59,284 bases of DNA from an uncultured virus (IMG/VR IMGVR_UViG_3300042291_002144) (Duplodnaviria > Heunggongvirae > Uroviricota > Caudoviricetes), in IMG/VR virus record IMGVR_UViG_3300042291_002144. One strand, given 5' to 3'. Of the stretch, positions 2,739 through 28,667 are shown in pieces (the first letter of the stretch is position 1; the number at the start of each line of letters is the position of its first letter). The position numbers and the translations under genes are program-made. The notes under the pieces are model-generated. The model did no database searches. It was not told the DNA's origin and was given only the letters and a program-made list of their open reading frames with translations.

Positions 2739-5700
2739 CTTCTACTTGAATAAAACCAATTCCTCCAAACTCTGATCGGTAATCTATAAAGTCCATCTTA
2801 TTGCCTTCAAGCTCAGACCATAATTGATCTACTCGACAATTAGCATTTCTATGAAATTCAGTATCTTTAGTATCGTGAAAACCAATCCATCCTCCAGGTT
2901 TTACTAAGTGTCTATACATTTCATAATCTTGTTTTACTCCATCATATGTATGATCACCATCAATAAATAGAAAATCTAATAACTCTCCAGATAAAACTGA
3001 TTCTACTTCTTCTAACATTGTATAATCATGCGAAGATCCACATAGCATTGTTACATTTGAGCCAAGCGATTTAAGATATTCATCTCTTTCATATTCATCA
3101 TAATCTGCTCTTCCAAATTGACCATGAGGCATGTCTACTGATATTCTGATTCCATCATTAGATAGTTTACTCCAAATTGCAAAAGATCCTCCCTGATCAG
3201 TACCTATTTCCATAAAATTAGTCACATCTAAACTCTTAAAGAATTCAGCTGCTTCTAATATTTCTTTATGATTTTGCACCATTCCTAAATCGTATGATTC
3301 TTGAACAATTACCTCTACTGATTTTTCAGAATGACCAATCGCCTCATATCTTTCAATTTCTTTAATTACATCATATGCTATAATATTTCTAGTACATTCA
3401 AATTGGCGATGAGTTCCTTTTTGATCAGGACACCAGTTCCAATCACCAGCATCTAATCTATGTCTATTGAAACATCCAGTACATCCTCCACCTTTAAATA
3501 TTCTAATTACATTATCATCAAATATTTCAGTAGATGGTAAACTAAATCCTGAAATTAATACAGTAGGTGTTCCAACTGCCCAAGATAACCAACTTAATCC
3601 TGAACCTACTCCTACAAACATCTCACTATGTTTTAAATGAAGAATAACATTTGCTAAAGTGGAAGGTCCCTGTTTCATCGCTGCTCCATTAGGATAATAG
3701 TTTTGCATATATCCATCTTCTTCAAGCCCAATAATAATTACTTTTAATCCACGATCTATAAAATAATTAGTTAATTCTTGCCAACCATTTGGATTATTCC
3801 AATATTTTGCTTGTGCTGTTGCATGCATAGCAATACAAACGTATTTTCCATCAACTGGTGAATCTCCAAGAGGAATAGTTAATTTAGGTTTAATGGTAGT
3901 GTGAGTTATTCCCAATATATCACATGCAGTAGATTGAAGTGGCAGTTTTTTAAAATCATTTTGATGATATTCAGTATTTACTGAATTATCTGCATTATAA
4001 AACCAACCTATTTTATACTGTGCATATAAGTCATGAACGATTTCACCTGGAGAAACAAATTTTAATTCAGGATAATTTTCAATAAATAATTCATTTTTAA
4101 AAGTACTTATAATAACTTCACAATTATGTTTCTTTTTAAATTCAGCAACTTGTGGAAACCACGCAAGAGAATCTCCTAGTGCACTTGATTCAAGGGAAAT
4201 TAGAACTCTTTTTCCAGCAAGATTAATATCTTCTTCATAAACTTCCTTAGTATCTAAATTAGTTATTTTAACTTTCCAATCTACGAAATATTTAATATTA
4301 CTTCTAACCCAACAGTTAATATTAATTGTATTAGAATAAAGAATTTCATTACTTTTATTATCAATTAATTCTATTAGGAATTGACTATCACTTTGTCCAG
4401 TAATCTCAACAAATGCACCATTAATAAAATTAATATGATAGTTAATTGTTACTGGTCTAGGCTCTAATAATAAGTCTTTAATATAATTTGGGTTTGATAT
4501 CATACATGTTGCTTTTTTAGTTAAATTATTATATTCTTTTTTTATCTTTAAATTTGGAAAATCTACTGAAAATCCTTCATCTAAAAGATAGTTAGGTATC
4601 TTATACGCAACTATTTCACGAGGAGCAAGTTGATATTCAGTTAATTTATTTTGATATTTAATAAGAGTAAAAATAGATTCTGATTCTGCTCCAACTAAAC
4701 ACAAATAGTTTTCTCCATTTTGGTTTTGTGCAAGGTATACAAAACCATCTCCGCCAGATTTAGTTGTTAATTGAGGATAAGTTAAAAGAATAACACCATT
4801 TAGAGTATTTAATTTCTTTATTGATTCAATATTATTAATTTGAATATCTAATCCATATCCATCACATGCAGCATAGAGAACATCTTCTAATATTACTTTA
4901 CCATTATATGCAAAATAACTTTCCTTTGTTGTAAATGGTGCAAGAACTGAACTTAACATGCTAATGTTTGCTGAAAAGAATGCTGAATTAATCGAATCTT
5001 CACCATTCCATGAATATGCAATCATATCATAATCAGTTAAGTTAGTATGATGCACTTCTAATAATTTAGGGTCATCAATAATATAGTCATAATTTATAAA
5101 GTGAGCAGTTGAACAAGTATTTGATTTTGCAATACCTAATCCGTTTTTAATAAGCTTCAATGCTGCAAACCCATGATTAAACTCATATGAATAAGATAAA
5201 TCAAAATCTGGGTATCTAATATAGTGGATTGGTACAGTATTTGATAACTTATGATATTCGTCTGGGTAAACTACTGGATTGTCTCTATCAAATATTACAT
5301 AATCTGCAATTTTATAAAATTCTGTTGGTACTTCAATATGTGATGATATAATTACAAGTAAACCCTGATTTTTTAAACTATTTACAGATCTTCTTAAAAG
5401 AGATAATTTTTCAGGAGTATCTGCATGCGACATTATAATTGCGGCTTCATCTTTTCTAGTAACTTCAAGTGTAATTGGGCACACCTTTTTTAATTGTTCA
5501 AATCCTTCTAAACCAACCTTTGCCCAATTAAATTCTTGAAAAATTAAGTCAGCTTCTTCTCTAGCTAATTTCTTTTTATCTCCCCAATTTTCAAAGCAAT
5601 CAATCATTACCTCTTTAAGATTATCAAAGTCAGGCTCAGAGTATAACCCTGGAGTATATCTAGCAAAACCTAAGTTTGCTCCAATATTTGCAAGTCGTTC

Positions 5701-24868: not shown

Positions 24869-25225
24869 ATGACATTTGAAAAATTTAAACTAGTGATTGA
24901 CCAAATGGTTAATAATTCCAAAAAAATATCTACTACGTATGATAATGGTATAGATTTAATTGACTTTACCGATGGTTATCATACTATTATTCATCACTTA
25001 TTGGAAGAAATATTGCACCCAGACGGTTTATCATGGCTAGACTGGTTTCTATATGAAAAGGACTATATTCATGATGGTATTGGAAGATCTGATATTAGTG
25101 CATTTGACCGTGAATATAATCCATTAACTAATGAAAAGACTGAGGTCGAGATTATTAAAAATCTTGAAGAATTACATGAATATTTAACCCAAAACAACTA
25201 TTTTAAATGCGAAAGCCTGAAATAA
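24869..25225 (+). CDS. Hypothetical protein
   Basis: 118-aa ORF with W.DWFLYE motif between the topoisomerase subunits. Confidence 0.75.
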   Translation: MTFEKFKLVIDQMVNNSKKISTTYDNGIDLIDFTDGYHTIIHHLLEEILHPDGLSWLDWFLYEKDYIHDGIGRSDISAFDREYNPLTNEKTEVEIIKNLEELHEYLTQNNYFKCESLK

Positions 25226-26571
25226 AAACAGTAACTGACTATTTAGATAATGACTATAAAGAATACGCAGTATATGTTGTAGAAGAGAGAGCAATACCTT
25301 CAGTGATCGATGGATTTAAACCAACCCAACGTAAAGTAATTTTTGTTGCAAATAAAGTTTGGAGAAATGGTTCTGAGAAGCCAATGAAGATATTTCAATT
25401 AGCTGGTAGAGTTGCAGCAGATGCTTTTTATCATCATGGAGATGGATCTCTTAATTCTGCGATTGTTGGAATGGCTCAAAAATTTAAAAACTCAATGCCA
25501 GTATTAGAAGATATTGGCCAGTTCGGTTCATTACGTTCTCCTGAAGCAGCGGCCCCTAGATATATTGCAACTAAACTGCACAAGAATTTTAGATTATTAT
25601 ATAAGGATTTTGAATTACTTGAGTCTAGATATGAAGAAGGTAATGAAATTGAACCTAAATTCTTTCTTCCAATTATCCCTACTGTTCTTCTAAATGGTGG
25701 TAGTGGGATCGCAGTTGGATTCGCAACAAATATATTAAATCGTAATCCATTGCATCTTATAGAAGCTTGTTTAAAATCACTAGATGGAAAAGCATATTCT
25801 GAGCCTTCTCCATGGAATAGAGAATTTGATGGGTCCTGTGATTTAGTAGATTCAGAAAAGTTTTCTTGGATCTTTGGTGGAAAATATGATGTTAAAAATA
25901 CAACAACTGTTTCTATTACAGAATTACCTCCATCTATTACATATGAAAAATTTGATCAACATCTAATTGATTTAGAAGATACTCGACGAATTGCAAGTTA
26001 TGAAAATAACTGTAAATCAAATATTAATTATACTCTTAAGTTTAGGAGAGAAGATTTAAAAACGTTATCTGACTCAATTAAGCTAAAGAGATTATTAAAG
26101 ATGGAAGAACGTCAAACTGAGAATTTTACAGTACTTGATGAATTTGGTCGATTGAAAATCTTTACTTCAGCTAGTGAAATAATTGAATATTTTGTAAAAT
26201 TTAGGCTTACTTTCTATGATAAGCGTAAACAATATATTATTGATACTCTAACTCAAGAGTTATTAGTTTTATCAAATAAGGCTAGATTTATTAACGATAT
26301 TATTAATAATAAACTTAAAATTAATAATGTTCTTAAAAAAGAAATTGTTCTATATTTACAAACTGCTGATTTTGATGAAGTAAATGGATCATACCAATAT
26401 TTACTCTCTTTACCGATCTATACATTAACTAAGGAGACATATGAAGATTTACTTAGTACTGTTTTAACTAAAGAATTAGAATTAGAAGAAATTAAAAAGA
26501 GACTTCCAGTTTCAATGTATCGAGAAGATTTACAAGAATTAAAAAAAGCATTACAAAAAGAATATAACTAA
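25207..26571 (+). CDS. gp52: Type IIA DNA topoisomerase medium subunit (T4 gp52)
   Basis: RAIPSVIDGFKPTQRK, YHHGD, active-site AAPRYI, P.VLLNG..GIAVGFAT. Confidence 0.96.
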   Translation: MRKPEIKTVTDYLDNDYKEYAVYVVEERAIPSVIDGFKPTQRKVIFVANKVWRNGSEKPMKIFQLAGRVAADAFYHHGDGSLNSAIVGMAQKFKNSMPVLEDIGQFGSLRSPEAAAPRYIATKLHKNFRLLYKDFELLESRYEEGNEIEPKFFLPIIPTVLLNGGSGIAVGFATNILNRNPLHLIEACLKSLDGKAYSEPSPWNREFDGSCDLVDSEKFSWIFGGKYDVKNTTTVSITELPPSITYEKFDQHLIDLEDTRRIASYENNCKSNINYTLKFRREDLKTLSDSIKLKRLLKMEERQTENFTVLDEFGRLKIFTSASEIIEYFVKFRLTFYDKRKQYIIDTLTQELLVLSNKARFINDIINNKLKINNVLKKEIVLYLQTADFDEVNGSYQYLLSLPIYTLTKETYEDLLSTVLTKELELEEIKKRLPVSMYREDLQELKKALQKEYN

Positions 26572-26855: not shown

Positions 26856-27179
26856 ATGATATTACTTACACATTTAATACTATCCCTTTTCCTAACCTCT
26901 ACTCCAACTAATCATATTTCTGGAGTAGCTACGTGGTATGATACTTCTCGCCATCCTAAAGTACACCGACACTATTCAACCGCTGCATATTGTGATTGGA
27001 AACACTTAAATAAAAAGTTTGTTGTGACTAATATTAAAAATGGAAAATCAGATACTGTTGTAATTACAGATAAACATCCAAATGGCCCTAATCATATTGA
27101 TTTAAGTAAATCTTCATTTGGTAAGCTTGCAAATCATGCACAAGGAAAAATAATAGTAAAAATTACCGAATTAAAATGA
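26856..27179 (+). CDS. RlpA-like double-psi beta-barrel protein (putative lytic transglycosylase) with signal peptide
   Basis: GVATWY, TAA, VVTN..NGKS..V.ITD, IDLS..SF..LA pattern of RlpA/DPBB_1. Confidence 0.8.
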   Translation: MILLTHLILSLFLTSTPTNHISGVATWYDTSRHPKVHRHYSTAAYCDWKHLNKKFVVTNIKNGKSDTVVITDKHPNGPNHIDLSKSSFGKLANHAQGKIIVKITELK

Positions 27180-27355
27180 ATCAAGATGTAGAAAAAGCTC
27201 TATTCCATTTAGAGATGGCAGATATTCATATATCTAAATATTTAGATAATGAAAATAAATTAGGTTTAATAACAACTATTCGTAATACTGCATATAATAT
27301 TAAACAATATTATAATGAAAATAAGACGATTTGTGAAACTAATAAAAATAAGTAG
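27176..27355 (+). CDS. Small hypothetical protein (59 aa, not in ORF track)
   Basis: ATGA-coupled to the RlpA-like stop: MNQDVEKALFHLEMADIHI...TNKNK*. Confidence 0.55.
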   Translation: MNQDVEKALFHLEMADIHISKYLDNENKLGLITTIRNTAYNIKQYYNENKTICETNKNK

Positions 27356-27361
27356 TATAAT
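27336..27361 (+). promoter_or_regulatory. Putative early/middle promoter AAAC-N16-TATAAT
   Basis: gAAAC taataaaaataagtag TATAAT upstream of the 27380 ORF. Confidence 0.6.
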
Positions 27362-27379
27362 AATAAAAACATAATCACT

Positions 27380-27808
27380 ATGACTATTGCACAAGCATTA
27401 AAAGAAAAAAACAAAAAAGTTGCAACTCTTCAAAAGCTTTGGGAAAGAATTCAAAAATATAATTCTATTCAAGAAGGAGCTGAACGTCCATATAGTACAA
27501 CTGAGACATTTAGTCAAATTGGAGAAGTATCTGCAGAATTAATTCTATTAAAAACTAGAATTCATGCTGCCTCTGAATCAGTTAGGTCTGATATTTTTGC
27601 TCTTTCTGAGTTTAAGAATATTGCACAACGAATTAAAGGTATTGATTGTACTACTGGTACGTATACTGAAAGATTTTCAAGCACAATTGTCCAAAAAAAT
27701 GCTGAATTAAATATTACTTGGCAGGACCGTGAACTTGCTTTAATTGAAGATAACATTGAAGCAATTCAAGAAAAACTAGATAAATTCAATCATACTACTG
27801 AAATTTAA
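27380..27808 (+). CDS. DIP1984-like coiled-coil protein
   Basis: MTIAQAL.....K N-terminus, LKTRIH.A, I..L.E, and C-terminal IQEKLDKFN.TTEI pattern recalled for the DIP1984 family. Confidence 0.65.
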   Translation: MTIAQALKEKNKKVATLQKLWERIQKYNSIQEGAERPYSTTETFSQIGEVSAELILLKTRIHAASESVRSDIFALSEFKNIAQRIKGIDCTTGTYTERFSSTIVQKNAELNITWQDRELALIEDNIEAIQEKLDKFNHTTEI

Positions 27809-27811
27809 AAT

Positions 27812-28003
27812 ATGGGCGAGTTTAGTTAGAATTAGATCATTCATAGCTTTATCCAACCGTTAAAAAGTTGTACTAAGAACTGGAAAGTTGCTCGATATTG
27901 ATACTAGCCTTAAAATTCAAGATATAAAGGTTCTTTAAATAAAACTCTGTTTGTCAAAAGTCTGCAGCTATATTAATCTTTTTCTTCTAAGCGAGCCCGC
28001 CAT
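27812..28003 (+). ncRNA. Candidate structured ncRNA downstream of DIP1984-like gene
   Basis: Non-coding, with nested end-to-end complementarity (ATGG/CCAT, TTAGAA/TTCTAA, AGAT/ATCT, ATAGCT/AGCTAT) and internal helices (CAAC/GTTG, AAGAAC/GTTCTT, CCTT/AAGG); ends right before a terminator. Confidence 0.6.
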
Positions 28004-28007
28004 GTTA

Positions 28008-28048
28008 AAATAAAAAAGGATCTATAAATTATAGATCCTTTTTTATTT
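28008..28048. terminator. Bidirectional intrinsic terminator
   Basis: AAATAAAAAAGGATCTATA-aat-TATAGATCCTTTTTTATTT perfect inverted repeat between convergent units. Confidence 0.88.
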
Positions 28049-28667
28049 ATTTTTGAAAATACTTAGCTATTCGATTGCTTAGTCGAACTCTAGGATCGTC
28101 TATATCTCGTGATAATATTTGGTATGGTAACATGAAACCAAAACTAAGCACTATTCGTCTTGACTTAAATGGATTTGGCGTCCAGTGTTTATATAGGCTT
28201 GCCTCAAAGCAATACATATCAGACTTACTAATAGTTAGAGTATCGGAGTCAATGCAAAAATCATATGGTTCTGCAAGTACACTAATATTACACTTATAGT
28301 TAATGTAGCCCTCTACTGCAGCATCATAATGTTTCTGTATCTTTCCTCCAGTAGACATATCAACTGCTTGTAAAAAACTATTGTCTACTGGTATATTTAG
28401 TTGGCCACTAATCTTGTCTCTAAGCGTGTAAATAAATTGAGGTACTTCATTCTGTACTACGCTAGATATTGACTGAAAATCAGTGATGTAATTAGTTAGT
28501 TTAGTATTTGAAAGATCAAACATTGCACTACCTCCATTTAGAGACTTTGATAATTTATCTAGGTGATAATTAGGTTTTCCTAGACTAAAATCTAGAGTGG
28601 CTACCCAGTCAACTATTTGAGTAGTCTCCTCTCTATCTATAAAATTTTTAAAATGAAGGTAACTCAT
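28047..28667 (-). CDS. 2OG-Fe(II) oxygenase superfamily protein
   Basis: GGKIQKHYD (HxD), distal H (YKHW) and R.VLSFGF 2OG-binding strand. Confidence 0.78.
   Translation of the reverse strand: MSYLHFKNFIDREETTQIVDWVATLDFSLGKPNYHLDKLSKSLNGGSAMFDLSNTKLTNYITDFQSISSVVQNEVPQFIYTLRDKISGQLNIPVDNSFLQAVDMSTGGKIQKHYDAAVEGYINYKCNISVLAEPYDFCIDSDTLTISKSDMYCFEASLYKHWTPNPFKSRRIVLSFGFMLPYQILSRDIDDPRVRLSNRIAKYFQK

What the first reader, a model, noticed from the sequence alone, without database searches (positions are those of the whole stretch)
27336..28048. Self-contained protein + structured RNA cassette: DIP1984-like gene followed by a ~190-nt folded non-coding element
Seen: promoter (27336-27361), then a 142-aa coiled-coil ORF, then a non-coding stretch (27812-28003), then a perfect terminator. 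This is among the longest ORF-free gaps in an otherwise packed window. Its ends pair in a long interrupted stem (ATGG/CCAT, GTTT/GAGC with G-U pairs, TTAGAA/TTCTAA, AGAT/ATCT, ATAGCT/AGCTAT). This encloses a multibranch core: CAAC-cgttaaaaa-GTTG, AAGAAC...GTTCTT enclosing AAC-tggaaa-GTT and CCTT-aaaattcaagatata-AAGG with an A-rich loop. Inference: a co-transcribed RNA that binds the oligomeric protein, i.e. an RNP, a type III-TA-like pair or a regulatory module. I know of no named function for it.
Basis: partly seen in the sequence, partly recalled or inferred. Interest (0 to 1): 0.82.

Follow-up and report, generated by a model that had tools for sequence, protein, structure and literature searches.

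The report
New phage RNA with protein partner
A small phage gene is followed by a conserved, folded non-coding RNA that turns up in lake RNA samples, and the same gene-plus-RNA pair recurs in many phages and bacteria, which points to an RNA-protein module that has not been described.

Summary
Window 27380-27808 encodes a 142-aa helical protein, a distant DUF6847/DIP1984 relative. It matches the HMMs below their cut-offs, and its model resembles PDB 3kdq (TM 0.72). An ORF-free stretch of about 190 nt (27813-28002) follows, then a 19-bp terminator.

Folding energy alone is unremarkable (z -1.05). Comparison carries the case:
- Homologues at 21-63% protein identity come from T4-like phages, other phages, Bacteroidota, Victivallales, Armatimonadota, Planctomycetota and Verrucomicrobiota.
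- They carry the same kind of element directly downstream on the same strand.
- Its features are a long closing helix whose sequence differs by lineage (covariation 0/500 shuffles), a purine (G.A) internal loop, hairpins, and an A-rich core with 7-nt periodicity (YCAAR units).
- A covariance model finds it in 50 of 78 non-redundant loci.
- Two canonical DUF6847 genes lack it.
- No Rfam family matches, and no paper was found.
- Four lake metatranscriptomes hold 153-179-nt contigs lying wholly on 27831-28000.
- The protein is predicted to form a homodimer (0.63 against control 0.00).

Best reading: a stable ncRNA that works with, and probably binds, its neighbouring protein. Binding and function are untested. 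The window's own copy has a degenerate repeat core.

The parts
27333..27361 (+). sigma-70-like promoter match (GTGAAA-17-TATAAT) upstream of the ORF
   Evidence: 10 of 12 matches. There are 10 such sites in 27100-28200 against 6.0 +/- 2.7 in shuffles, so this is not distinctive. Function was not tested.
27380..27808 (+). 142-aa gene for a helical protein, a divergent subfamily of DUF6847/DIP1984, predicted to form a homodimer
   Evidence: ORF. Pfam PF20935 gives E 1e-3 and 19.5 bits against a cut-off of 27. NCBIfam NF038048 gives E 3e-6 and 27.4 bits against a cut-off of 70. The AF2 model has pLDDT 92.3. Foldseek's best hit is 3kdq_A, E 4e-3, TMq 0.72. Homodimer score 0.63 against best control 0.00.
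27813..28002 (+). structured non-coding RNA element; limits are set by the conserved closing helix, and the true RNA ends are not known
   Evidence: Conserved in relatives. Covariation. Model R2 hits 27828-27987 at 25.7 bits, E 0.033; its only other match in the 59-kb window is at E 0.76. Metatranscriptome contigs lie on 27831-28000. No Rfam match. No tRNA or tmRNA.
27814..27830 (+). 5' strand of the closing helix: GGGC, tandem GA, GUUUAG, then AGA
   Evidence: Pairs with 27983-27998. helices 1 and 2: 93.3% and 79.9% of cells paired, with 10 of 13 pairs changed on both sides.
27983..27998 (+). 3' strand of the closing helix: UCU, CUAAGC, GA, GCCC
   Evidence: Partner of 27814-27830. G.U pairs are frequent on this strand (UG:6, UG:4, GU:5, GU:4).
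27834..27848 (+). inner part of the long stem, 5' side: AGAU 27834-37 and AUAGCU 27843-48, pairing with AUCU 27976-79 and AGCUAU 27966-71
   Evidence: Read directly from the sequence. Analogous helices are seen by eye in relatives, for example AGAGUA/UACUUU in L002. The alignment there is not in register, so this was not tested statistically.
27854..27870 (+). hairpin H1: CAAC, a 9-nt loop, GUUG
   Evidence: helix 3: 3 of 3 pairs changed on both sides, 70% of cells paired. Relatives carry UGAC/GUCA, AGAC/GUCU and UAGAAC/GUUCUA.
27894..27902 (+). GAU-NNN-GAU motif
   Evidence: G, A and T of both triplets are invariant or nearly so in 21 sequences. Also conserved in Bacteroidota copies.
27905..27965 (+). 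A-rich core corresponding to the heptad (YCAAR) array of relatives; includes local hairpin CCUU 27908-11 / AAGG 27927-30 with the conserved loop AAAAUUCAAGAU
   Evidence: Aligned with the arrays of relatives. Family-level lag-7 periodicity. In this copy the periodicity is weak (lag-7 identity 0.273) and there is one strict unit.
28008..28048 (.). intrinsic terminator hairpin (19 pairs) with T-runs on both sides, shared with the convergent ORF 28047-28667
   Evidence: Relatives have an equivalent hairpin of different sequence.

Best explanation
The locus is one copy of a widespread, previously unnamed two-part module. The first part is a gene for a small, dimer-forming helical protein, a divergent DUF6847/DIP1984 subfamily marked by an N-terminal IAQALKEKNK and a C-terminal IQExLDxFNHT. 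The second part is a non-coding RNA of about 170-200 nt encoded immediately 3' on the same strand.

The RNA folds into a long irregular closing helix that contains tandem G.A pairs. The helix encloses one or two hairpins, a GAU-NNN-GAU motif and an A-rich core built from degenerate 7-nt units (NNYCAAR). It is found as a short separate contig in lake RNA libraries.

Shown here: conservation, structure, genomic linkage, presence in RNA libraries, and predicted protein self-association.

Inferred: the RNA is the partner of the protein. Protein dimers would bind the regularly spaced YCAAR units while the closing helix holds the array in place. This resembles the way TRAP and HutP read evenly spaced triplets (recalled, not from a call). 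The resulting ribonucleoprotein would be the working unit of an accessory module exchanged between phages and bacteria. Its cellular target is unknown.
For: Linkage
- In 15 of 15 viral loci, the next opposite-strand ORF of 60 aa or more starts 225-389 nt after the stop. One locus, L011, has a 67-aa + strand ORF inside the gap.
- The stretch in between is better conserved than the protein. Blocks are conserved across 11 distinct sequences with 69% mean column identity, while proteins are 49-63% identical.
- Model R2 finds the element on the + strand at E <= 0.05 in 50 of 78 non-redundant sources. In 49 it lies directly after the gene. In L065 it lies behind one extra ORF. About 35 of the 50 were in the seed; 15 were new, including the window.
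- Contexts differ: topoisomerase II in T4-like phages; RNA ligase, TnpB or tRNA arrays in other phages; ECF sigma factor, M48 peptidase, YceI or PorP/SprF in Bacteroidota.
- Three genomes checked whole have exactly one R1 hit each, at the gene.
- In 151 genomes of one family, the protein and the only strong RNA hit (114 bits) sit in the same single genome.
- Two canonical DUF6847 genes (163 and 133 bits) found in 401 Bacteroidota genomes have no element.

Structure
- Covariation statistics. On A6: 91.7% paired against 62.7% shuffled, all 11 pairs changed on both sides, 0 of 500 shuffles. That alignment was fitted to the model.
- Planctomycete subgroup: 62 predicted pairs, 15 compensatory, 89.6% of cells paired.
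- A long-range helix scores above all 20 shuffles in 37 of 78 loci. It is stronger on the + strand in 48 loci, weaker in 20, and tied in 10.

Repeats
- Lag-7 identity is 0.329 against 0.255-0.296 at other lags. Lag 7 is the best lag in 38 of 78 elements, 0 of 78 ORFs and 6 of 76 flanks.
- The in-phase YCAAR chain scores above all 30 shuffles in 47 of 78 loci and above the minus strand in 72 of 78.

Expression
- Four metatranscriptome runs hold contigs of 167, 167, 179 and 153 nt that lie on 27831-28000 at 1-3 differences. The X20 contig continues for 26 further letters, most of them adapter sequence.
- Three of the contigs stop at 27997-28000 without loose ends. That is a weak hint of a 3' end upstream of the terminator.

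Protein
- Homodimer score 0.63 against a best control of 0.00. This mark was reached by 20 of 30 proteins solved as pairs of one chain and by 1 of 23 solved as single chains. The runs agree in at least 94% of contacts, and partner pLDDT is at least 90.
- My own alignment was used, so those counts hold only roughly. The solved relative 3kdq may make this pass partly memory.
Against: - No experiment or computation here shows that the protein touches the RNA. Gene neighbourhood alone is weak evidence for binding.
- The protein has no recognised RNA-binding domain.
- The window's own copy has a degenerate array: one strict unit and no lag-7 signal. Strict in-phase YCAAR units number only 2 at the median. 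The figure of 8-9 units is a by-eye count that includes degenerate units.
- R2 misses 28 of 78 sources, mostly GC-rich ones, where the element was recognised only by eye or by a separate alignment.
- L063 and L069 homologues show no element.
- The contigs give no strand and no reliable ends. Their 5' ends (27831-27845) fall inside the predicted 5' strand of the closing helix. If those ends are real, the mature RNA would lack the outer helix.
- Only a dimer was tested, not a higher oligomer.
Confidence: 0.5

Rival explanations
1. The RNA acts on its own in trans as a decoy or sponge for a host factor that recognises regularly spaced pyrimidine-CAA units in unstructured A-rich RNA. Candidates are Rho (YC dinucleotides of rut sites), an S1/KH/cold-shock-type single-strand binder, or a ribonuclease. 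The neighbouring protein would work in the same pathway without binding the RNA.
For: - The core is G-poor and A-rich with repeated YC dinucleotides over roughly 55-65 nt (by-eye reading).
- The element is present in RNA libraries as a short separate contig.
- Plain tandem heptamer arrays of the same unit, (AAATTCA)n, (AAGTCAA)n and (GAGTCAA)n, occur in intergenic DNA of 8 of 151 Flavobacteriales-type genomes that lack the gene. The unit may therefore matter to a host factor.
- The properties of rut sites are recalled, not tested here.
Against: - Strict linkage to one protein subfamily across phyla is not required by a free-standing decoy.
- The 7-nt period does not match what I recall of Rho's footprint per subunit.
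- Parts of the core are base-paired in some clades.
Confidence: 0.2
2. The element is a cis-acting 3' UTR device of the gene's mRNA. It could be a protective 3' structure, a processing site, or part of the terminator that sets the protein's expression level. It would not be a functional RNA in its own right.
For: - It always lies 3' of the gene on the same strand, with only 3-10 nt between the stop codon and the first helix in most T4-like copies.
- In Bacteroidota copies the closing helix is followed directly by a U-run, so the helix itself could terminate transcription.
Against: - About 190 nt with lineage-specific compensatory changes, a conserved purine loop, a conserved GAU-NNN-GAU motif and a periodic core is far more than a stabilising hairpin needs.
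- The T4-like copies have a separate terminator hairpin after the element.
- L015 and L038 carry an extra insert of about 125 nt between the stop codon and the element. L065 carries a whole extra ORF there. The element therefore tolerates separation from the coding region.
- RNA contigs of 153-179 nt lie on the element alone.
Confidence: 0.13
3. The pair is a toxin-antitoxin-like or abortive-infection-like module in which the repeat-bearing RNA neutralises the protein (type III-like logic).
For: - A small protein sits beside a repeat-containing structured RNA plus a terminator.
- Distribution is patchy and mobile-looking across phages and chromosomes: the gene is in 1 of 151 related genomes and occurs in many phyla.
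Against: - Tested defining features are not met. The RNA is downstream of the gene, the units are about 7 nt and degenerate rather than 34-48-nt exact repeats, and the protein has no ToxN/AbiQ or other nuclease match.
- PADLOC gives only weak coiled-coil noise.
- The fold is the helical DIP1984 type.
- The features of type III systems are recalled from the literature, not taken from a call.
Confidence: 0.08
4. The element acts at the DNA level, as inverted repeats flanking short iterons. Examples would be an origin, a recombination site, or a binding array for a DNA-binding protein.
For: - The closing helix is also an inverted repeat in DNA.
- 7-nt direct repeats resemble iterons.
- Similar heptamer arrays exist as plain DNA microsatellites.
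Against: - The helices rely on G.U pairs and are stronger on the + strand in 48 loci against 20.
- Tandem G.A loops are conserved.
- The orientation relative to the gene is fixed.
- RNA libraries hold the element.
- Compensatory changes keep pairing rather than sequence.
Confidence: 0.03

Closest known systems
DIP1984 / DUF6847 protein family (PF20935, NF038048; crystal structure 3kdq; some members carry the automatic label 'putative septicolysin')
   Same: - The protein's predicted fold matches 3kdq_A (TMq 0.72, probability 1.00).
- 22 of 30 subfamily members match PF20935 at E <= 0.01.
- The nearest Atlas clusters carry DUF6847.
   Different: - Scores are below both curated cut-offs (19.5 against 27 bits; 27.4 against 70 bits).
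- The subfamily has its own conserved termini.
- The two canonical members examined (163 and 133 bits) have no downstream RNA element.
- The family has no known function, so the name explains nothing.
Type III toxin-antitoxin systems (ToxIN, CptIN, TenpIN)
   Same: A compact pair of a small protein gene and an adjacent repeat-bearing structured RNA with a terminator. Found on phages and chromosomes with patchy distribution.
   Different: - The RNA lies after the gene, not before it.
- The units are about 7 nt and degenerate, inside a closed stem, not 34-48-nt tandem repeats.
- The protein is a helical DIP1984-like dimer with no endoribonuclease signature.
- Toxicity was not tested.
TRAP-trp leader and HutP-hut leader (oligomeric proteins reading evenly spaced short RNA motifs)
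   Same: Evenly spaced short motifs in a purine-rich single strand, with a 7-nt period. As I recall, HutP's UAG triplets also repeat every 7 nt. The protein is predicted to self-associate.
   Different: - Those RNAs are 5' leaders that control attenuation. This one is a separate RNA 3' of the protein's own gene, closed by a long helix.
- The protein fold is unrelated.
- Binding and ring formation are not shown.
Protein-partnered orphan structured ncRNAs (Y RNA with Ro/Rsr, OLE RNA with OapA, 6S RNA)
   Same: A structured RNA of 150-200 nt with a long closing stem formed by its two ends. It is genomically linked to a specific protein gene and present in RNA libraries.
   Different: - No Rfam model of any of these matches: the window at gathering score, its region 27700-28100 also at E <= 10, 40 related loci at gathering score, and 5 more loci at E <= 0.01.
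- The partner protein is unrelated.
- The periodic YCAAR core has no counterpart that I know of.

Membership tests
DIP1984 family (NCBIfam NF038048) / DUF6847 (Pfam PF20935) | Whole-protein HMM score at or above the curated cut-off | tested here: not met
   NF038048: 27.4 bits against 70. PF20935: 19.5 bits against 27. Homologues in 4 of 5 genomes holding loci score 20-32 bits; the fifth, G006, gave no match.
DIP1984 family (NCBIfam NF038048) / DUF6847 (Pfam PF20935) | Fold of the solved family member (3kdq): long helices with a beta-hairpin | tested here: met
   AF2 model pLDDT 92.3. Foldseek 3kdq_A: E 4e-3, probability 1.00, TMq 0.72, TMt 0.68. That 3kdq is DIP1984 itself is recalled; the entry title says only 'conserved protein from C. 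diphtheriae'.
Type III toxin-antitoxin system | Antitoxin RNA made of tandem direct repeats (about 34-48 nt) upstream of the toxin gene, separated from it by a terminator | tested here: not met
   The element lies downstream. Its repeats are about 7 nt and degenerate. The terminator follows the RNA.
Type III toxin-antitoxin system | Toxin is a ToxN/AbiQ-type endoribonuclease | tested here: not met
   No such Pfam, NCBIfam, PHROG or PADLOC match. The fold is DIP1984-like.
Type III toxin-antitoxin system | The protein is toxic and is neutralised by the RNA | not testable with these tools
   Needs expression assays.
Any Rfam 15 RNA family | Covariance-model score at or above the gathering score | tested here: not met
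   No matches in the window. Nothing credible at E <= 10 in 27700-28100; the hits there are terminator look-alikes. Only tRNAs appear elsewhere in 40 related loci. Nothing on the element in 5 more loci.
tRNA / tmRNA-like RNA | Cloverleaf or tmRNA detected; acceptor stem ending in NCCA | tested here: not met
   ARAGORN finds none in the window. GCCC-N-CCA occurs in many T4-like copies but varies (GCAA, UACC, UCCU) and is absent in other clades.
Intrinsic (Rho-independent) terminator | GC-containing hairpin followed by a T-run | tested here: met
   28008-28048: 19 pairs, 3-nt loop, T-run. This applies to the terminator only, not to the element.
TRAP/HutP-like protein-RNA recognition (works-like comparison, not homology) | Evenly spaced short motifs on the RNA | tested here: inconclusive
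   Family level: lag 7 is the best lag in 38 of 78 elements against 0 of 78 ORFs. Window copy: no lag-7 signal and 1 strict unit.
TRAP/HutP-like protein-RNA recognition (works-like comparison, not homology) | An oligomeric protein that binds those motifs | not testable with these tools
   Only homodimer formation is supported (0.63 against 0.00). RNA binding cannot be modelled here.

The most novel reading that the evidence does not exclude
The element defines a new class of bacterial and phage ribonucleoprotein. A rod-shaped ncRNA would present a ruler of 7-nt YCAAR units on which dimers of a DUF6847-like protein assemble side by side into a short nucleoprotein filament or ring. Phages and bacteria would trade this particle as a weapon or shield in RNA-level conflict, for example by trapping a host termination, decay or RNA-repair factor. 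The neighbouring tRNA arrays and RNA ligase genes in some phage copies would fit that use.
Probability: 0.2. Interest if true: 0.92.

Novelty: categorically new. Interest (0 to 1): 0.82.

Why it matters
If this holds, it adds a new structured RNA class with a dedicated protein partner. The class spans at least five bacterial phyla and several phage groups. It also gives a first functional handle on DUF6847/DIP1984-like proteins, which have a crystal structure but no known function.

The 7-nt periodic core inside a closed helix is an unusual RNA design. It suggests a countable, modular way for a protein to read RNA.

The module is patchy: the gene was found in 1 of 151 related genomes. It is shared between lake phages and Bacteroidota-type genomes and is present in lake metatranscriptomes. 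It is therefore a plausible player in phage-host conflict and can be tested with ordinary tools.

One caution on novelty. The general idea of a gene-linked structured ncRNA is well known. What is new is this family and its architecture. Large unnamed catalogues of viral RNA motifs exist (PMC10690425; passages only were read, supplements not opened) and could already list fragments of it.

Tried and rejected
**Known families and similarity searches**
- Rfam gave nothing on the element.
- ARAGORN found nothing in the window.
- blastn against GenBank phages found no match. tblastn found one uncultured 462-kb phage at 31% identity.
- A PDB sequence-profile search found nothing below E 0.08.
- PADLOC gave only weak LmuB coiled-coil noise.

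**Searches that went wrong or added nothing**
- The first pattern scan was mis-specified and found only the window's own contig.
- The corrected pattern found the same phage group plus one more contig.
A simple helix scan replaced it.
- RNAalifold on the mixed Bacteroidota alignment predicted no pairs because the stems were out of register. I set the closing helix by hand.
- 'Family of G157' returned the same genome sample as 'family of G005', so it added nothing.

**Weak model hits**
- The weak R1 hits in 8 other genomes are plain heptamer microsatellites, not the element.

**Repeat counts**
- A strict YCAAR matrix finds a median of only 2 in-phase units. The 8-9 units read by eye must count degenerate units.

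**Ideas considered and dropped**
- tRNA-like acceptor end: the CCA is not conserved.
- T-loop mimicry by UUCAA: many units are UUAAG.
- boxA-like GUUCUUUAAAUAA: found only in the window copy.
- A conserved peptide: no + strand ORF of 25 aa or more lies in the window's gap. ORFs of 60 aa or more occur in the gap only in L011 and L029. Single-base indels occur inside conserved blocks.

**Parts of the stretch without RNA-contig cover**
- No contig lay on the ORF body 27435-27812 or on the terminator 28002 onward.

**Literature**
- 'DIP1984'/'DUF6847': one incidental paper.
- '3KDQ'/'septicolysin': plasmid annotation papers only.
- Heptanucleotide repeats with noncoding RNA and phage, structured ncRNA with metatranscriptome and lake, novel RNA families with covariation and bacteriophage: none described this pair.
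- The search of earlier findings returned nothing.
Full report
**What is in the window**

The region lies in an AT-rich T4-like phage contig. A topoisomerase II gene sits at 25207-26571 (phrog_551, E 5e-140).

A 142-aa ORF runs from 27380 to 27808. A sigma-70-like match lies at 27333-27361, but such matches are as common as chance in this sequence. Downstream there is no + strand ORF of 25 aa or more until the convergent ORF at 28047-28667. A 19-pair hairpin with a T-run sits at 28008-28048.

On its own, the intervening RNA does not fold unusually well. The z-score is -1.05 on the + strand and -1.00 on the minus strand. Rfam and ARAGORN find nothing.

**The protein**

HMM matches to DUF6847 and DIP1984 are real but fall below the cut-offs.

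An AlphaFold model built on a 30-sequence alignment is confident (pLDDT 92.3). It has three long helices, a beta-hairpin and a C-terminal helix. Its best PDB match is 3kdq, an uncharacterised Corynebacterium diphtheriae protein (TMq 0.72). Prefoldin subunits follow far behind.

The ESM Atlas places the protein among viral hypothetical-protein clusters, some of which carry DUF6847.

A homodimer is supported. The score is 0.63 against a best control of 0.00. That mark was reached by 20 of 30 solved one-chain pairs and by 1 of 23 single chains. The runs agree in at least 94% of contacts, and pLDDT is at least 90. I used my own alignment, and the solved relative may contribute memory.

**Relatives and the downstream stretch**

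Protein-guided scans gave three sets of loci:
- 15 viral loci
- 43 metagenome loci
- 60 loci in species-representative genomes

Identity to the window protein runs from 63% down to 21%.

In all 15 viral loci, the next opposite-strand ORF of 60 aa or more starts 225-389 nt after the stop. The stretch in between shows conserved blocks: ATGGGCGA, GAT-NNN-GAT, CTCAAAATTCAAGAT and GAGCCCACCATAC.

The printed downstream sequences of the metagenome and genome loci show a common plan in Bacteroidota, Planctomycetota, Victivallales/Lentisphaerae, Verrucomicrobiota, Armatimonadota, a Eubacteriales MAG and several phage types. The plan has three parts:
- a long closing helix whose sequence is different in each lineage
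- internal hairpins
- an A-rich run of units such as TCAAG and TCAAA, spaced about 7 nt apart

L063 and L069 show no such element. L065 has it behind an extra ORF.

**Tests of structure**

In the T4-like clade (A4, 21 sequences), 16 pairs were counted. They gave 82.4% paired cells against 69.8% in shuffles (0 of 500) and 26-50% when partners were slid. Thirteen pairs show double changes. The covariation score is 0.392 against 0.209.

A model built from 21 Bacteroidota copies (R1) found the element in other clades. Of its 36 matches at E <= 1, 33 lay on the + strand right after the gene. On the resulting cross-clade alignment, the 11-pair closing helix is 91.7% paired against 62.7% in shuffles, and every pair shows double changes. 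That alignment was fitted to the model, so it leans towards the structure.

The iterated model R2 hits 50 of 78 non-redundant sources at E <= 0.05. Fifteen of these were not in its seed. One of them is the window, at 27828-27987 (E 0.033). The 28 misses are mostly GC-rich clades.

A separate alignment of seven planctomycete copies gives 62 predicted pairs. Fifteen have compensatory changes, and 89.6% of cells are paired.

A crude single-helix scan finds a long-range helix above all 20 shuffles in 37 of 78 loci. The helix is stronger on the + strand in 48 loci and weaker in 20. This fits an RNA read from the gene's strand.

A purine-purine internal loop (GGAA opposite GGAA in Bacteroidota, GA opposite GA in the phage clade) sits at the same place next to the outer helix.

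**The periodic core**

Nucleotide identity at lag 7 averages 0.329 in the elements, against 0.255-0.296 at other lags. Lag 7 is the best lag in 38 of 78 elements, in none of 78 ORFs and in 6 of 76 flanks.

An in-phase chain of strict YCAAR units beats all 30 shuffles in 47 of 78 loci and beats the minus strand in 72 of 78. The median is only 2 strict units. The 8-9 units I read by eye include degenerate ones.

The window's own copy has one strict unit and no lag-7 signal.

**Linkage**

Neighbouring genes differ widely, so conserved synteny of one phage group does not explain the pairing.

Three genomes searched whole have one hit each, at the gene. Two GC-rich genomes gave no hit because the model is blind there.

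In 151 genomes of one family, the protein occurs in one genome, and the only strong RNA hit is in that same genome. The weak hits in eight other genomes are plain heptamer microsatellites.

Canonical DUF6847 genes were found in 2 of 401 Bacteroidota genomes. One is followed directly by a terminator. The other is followed by what looks by eye like a tRNA gene on the other strand. Neither has the element. This sample is small.

**Expression**

The DNA occurs in lake-water metagenomes.

Four metatranscriptome runs hold contigs of 167, 167, 179 and 153 nt that lie on 27831-28000 with 1-3 differences. Three of them stop at 27997-28000 with no loose end. The fourth runs into adapter sequence about six letters after 27989.

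Contigs cannot give the strand, the level or firm ends, and RNA libraries can carry DNA. This shows presence in RNA libraries and gives a weak hint of a 3' end before the terminator.

Their 5' ends fall inside the predicted 5' strand of the closing helix. I cannot explain this.

**Interpretation**

The data establish a conserved, structured, gene-linked RNA class that Rfam does not hold and that my literature searches did not find.

The most economical mechanism is an RNP in which protein dimers read the spaced units. This is inference only. Rivals are set out separately: a free-standing decoy, a 3' UTR device, a TA-like pair and a DNA element.

Features of type III TA systems, HutP/TRAP, Rho and Y/OLE/6S RNAs are recalled from the literature, not taken from a call.

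Noticed in passing
L138:1501-1675, L139:1501-1676, L140:1501-1578, L142:1501-1573, L143:1501-1578, L146:1501-1669 and five more (L137, L141, L144, L145, L147): Intergenic tandem heptamer microsatellites, such as (AAATTCA)n, (AAGTCAA)n and (GAGTCAA)n with 8-13 copies, occur in 8 of 151 sampled Flavobacteriales-type genomes. They use the same unit as the RNA core but have no closing helix and no DUF6847-like gene.
   Followed up: partly
L015:2930-3055 and L038:2930-3060: A GC-rich insert of about 125 nt that looks strongly self-complementary lies between the stop codon and the RNA element in two T4-like relatives. It has no Rfam match at E <= 0.01. It could be a second structured RNA or a processing element.
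   Followed up: partly
L119:2470-2591 and L105 (first ~80 nt after the stop): Planctomycete copies carry a long near-perfect palindromic hairpin (30 pairs in L119) between the gene and the element. Rfam reports it only as a chance microRNA look-alike.
   Followed up: no
L060:2240-2415 and 5250-5323; L062:414-1569; L099:2696-2768 and 4176-4416; L122:110-342; L070:1275-2249; L071:2-694: In several phage-like loci the pair sits beside tRNA gene arrays. In L099 a tRNA follows the element directly. In L070 and L071 an RNA ligase gene (PF09414) lies immediately upstream.
   Followed up: no
L065:2943-3794 and 3793-3952: A 283-aa ORF is inserted between the DUF6847-like gene and the R2 hit (E 0.0012). 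The element can therefore be separated from the gene by a whole ORF.
   Followed up: no
window 27381-27417: RNA contigs of 192-708 nt from other organisms (depth up to 340) match only the first ~36 nt of the ORF, the conserved IAQALKEKNKK coding stretch, and then diverge. Homologous genes of relatives are thus present in the same lake RNA libraries.
   Followed up: no
window 27804-27832: A second promoter-like match (TTTAAA-17-TAGAAT, 9 of 12) overlaps the stop codon and the 5' strand of the closing helix. The RNA contigs begin at 27831-27845.
   Followed up: no
L076:2942-3105: A second, weak R2 hit (27 bits, E 0.017) lies about 330 nt downstream of the main element in a Crocinitomicaceae MAG contig. 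It was not inspected.
   Followed up: no
window 26856-27179 and L070:3332-3727: A small DPBB (lytic transglycosylase-like, PF03330) gene lies two genes upstream of the pair in the window. A similar gene lies just downstream of the pair in the unrelated phage locus L070.
   Followed up: no
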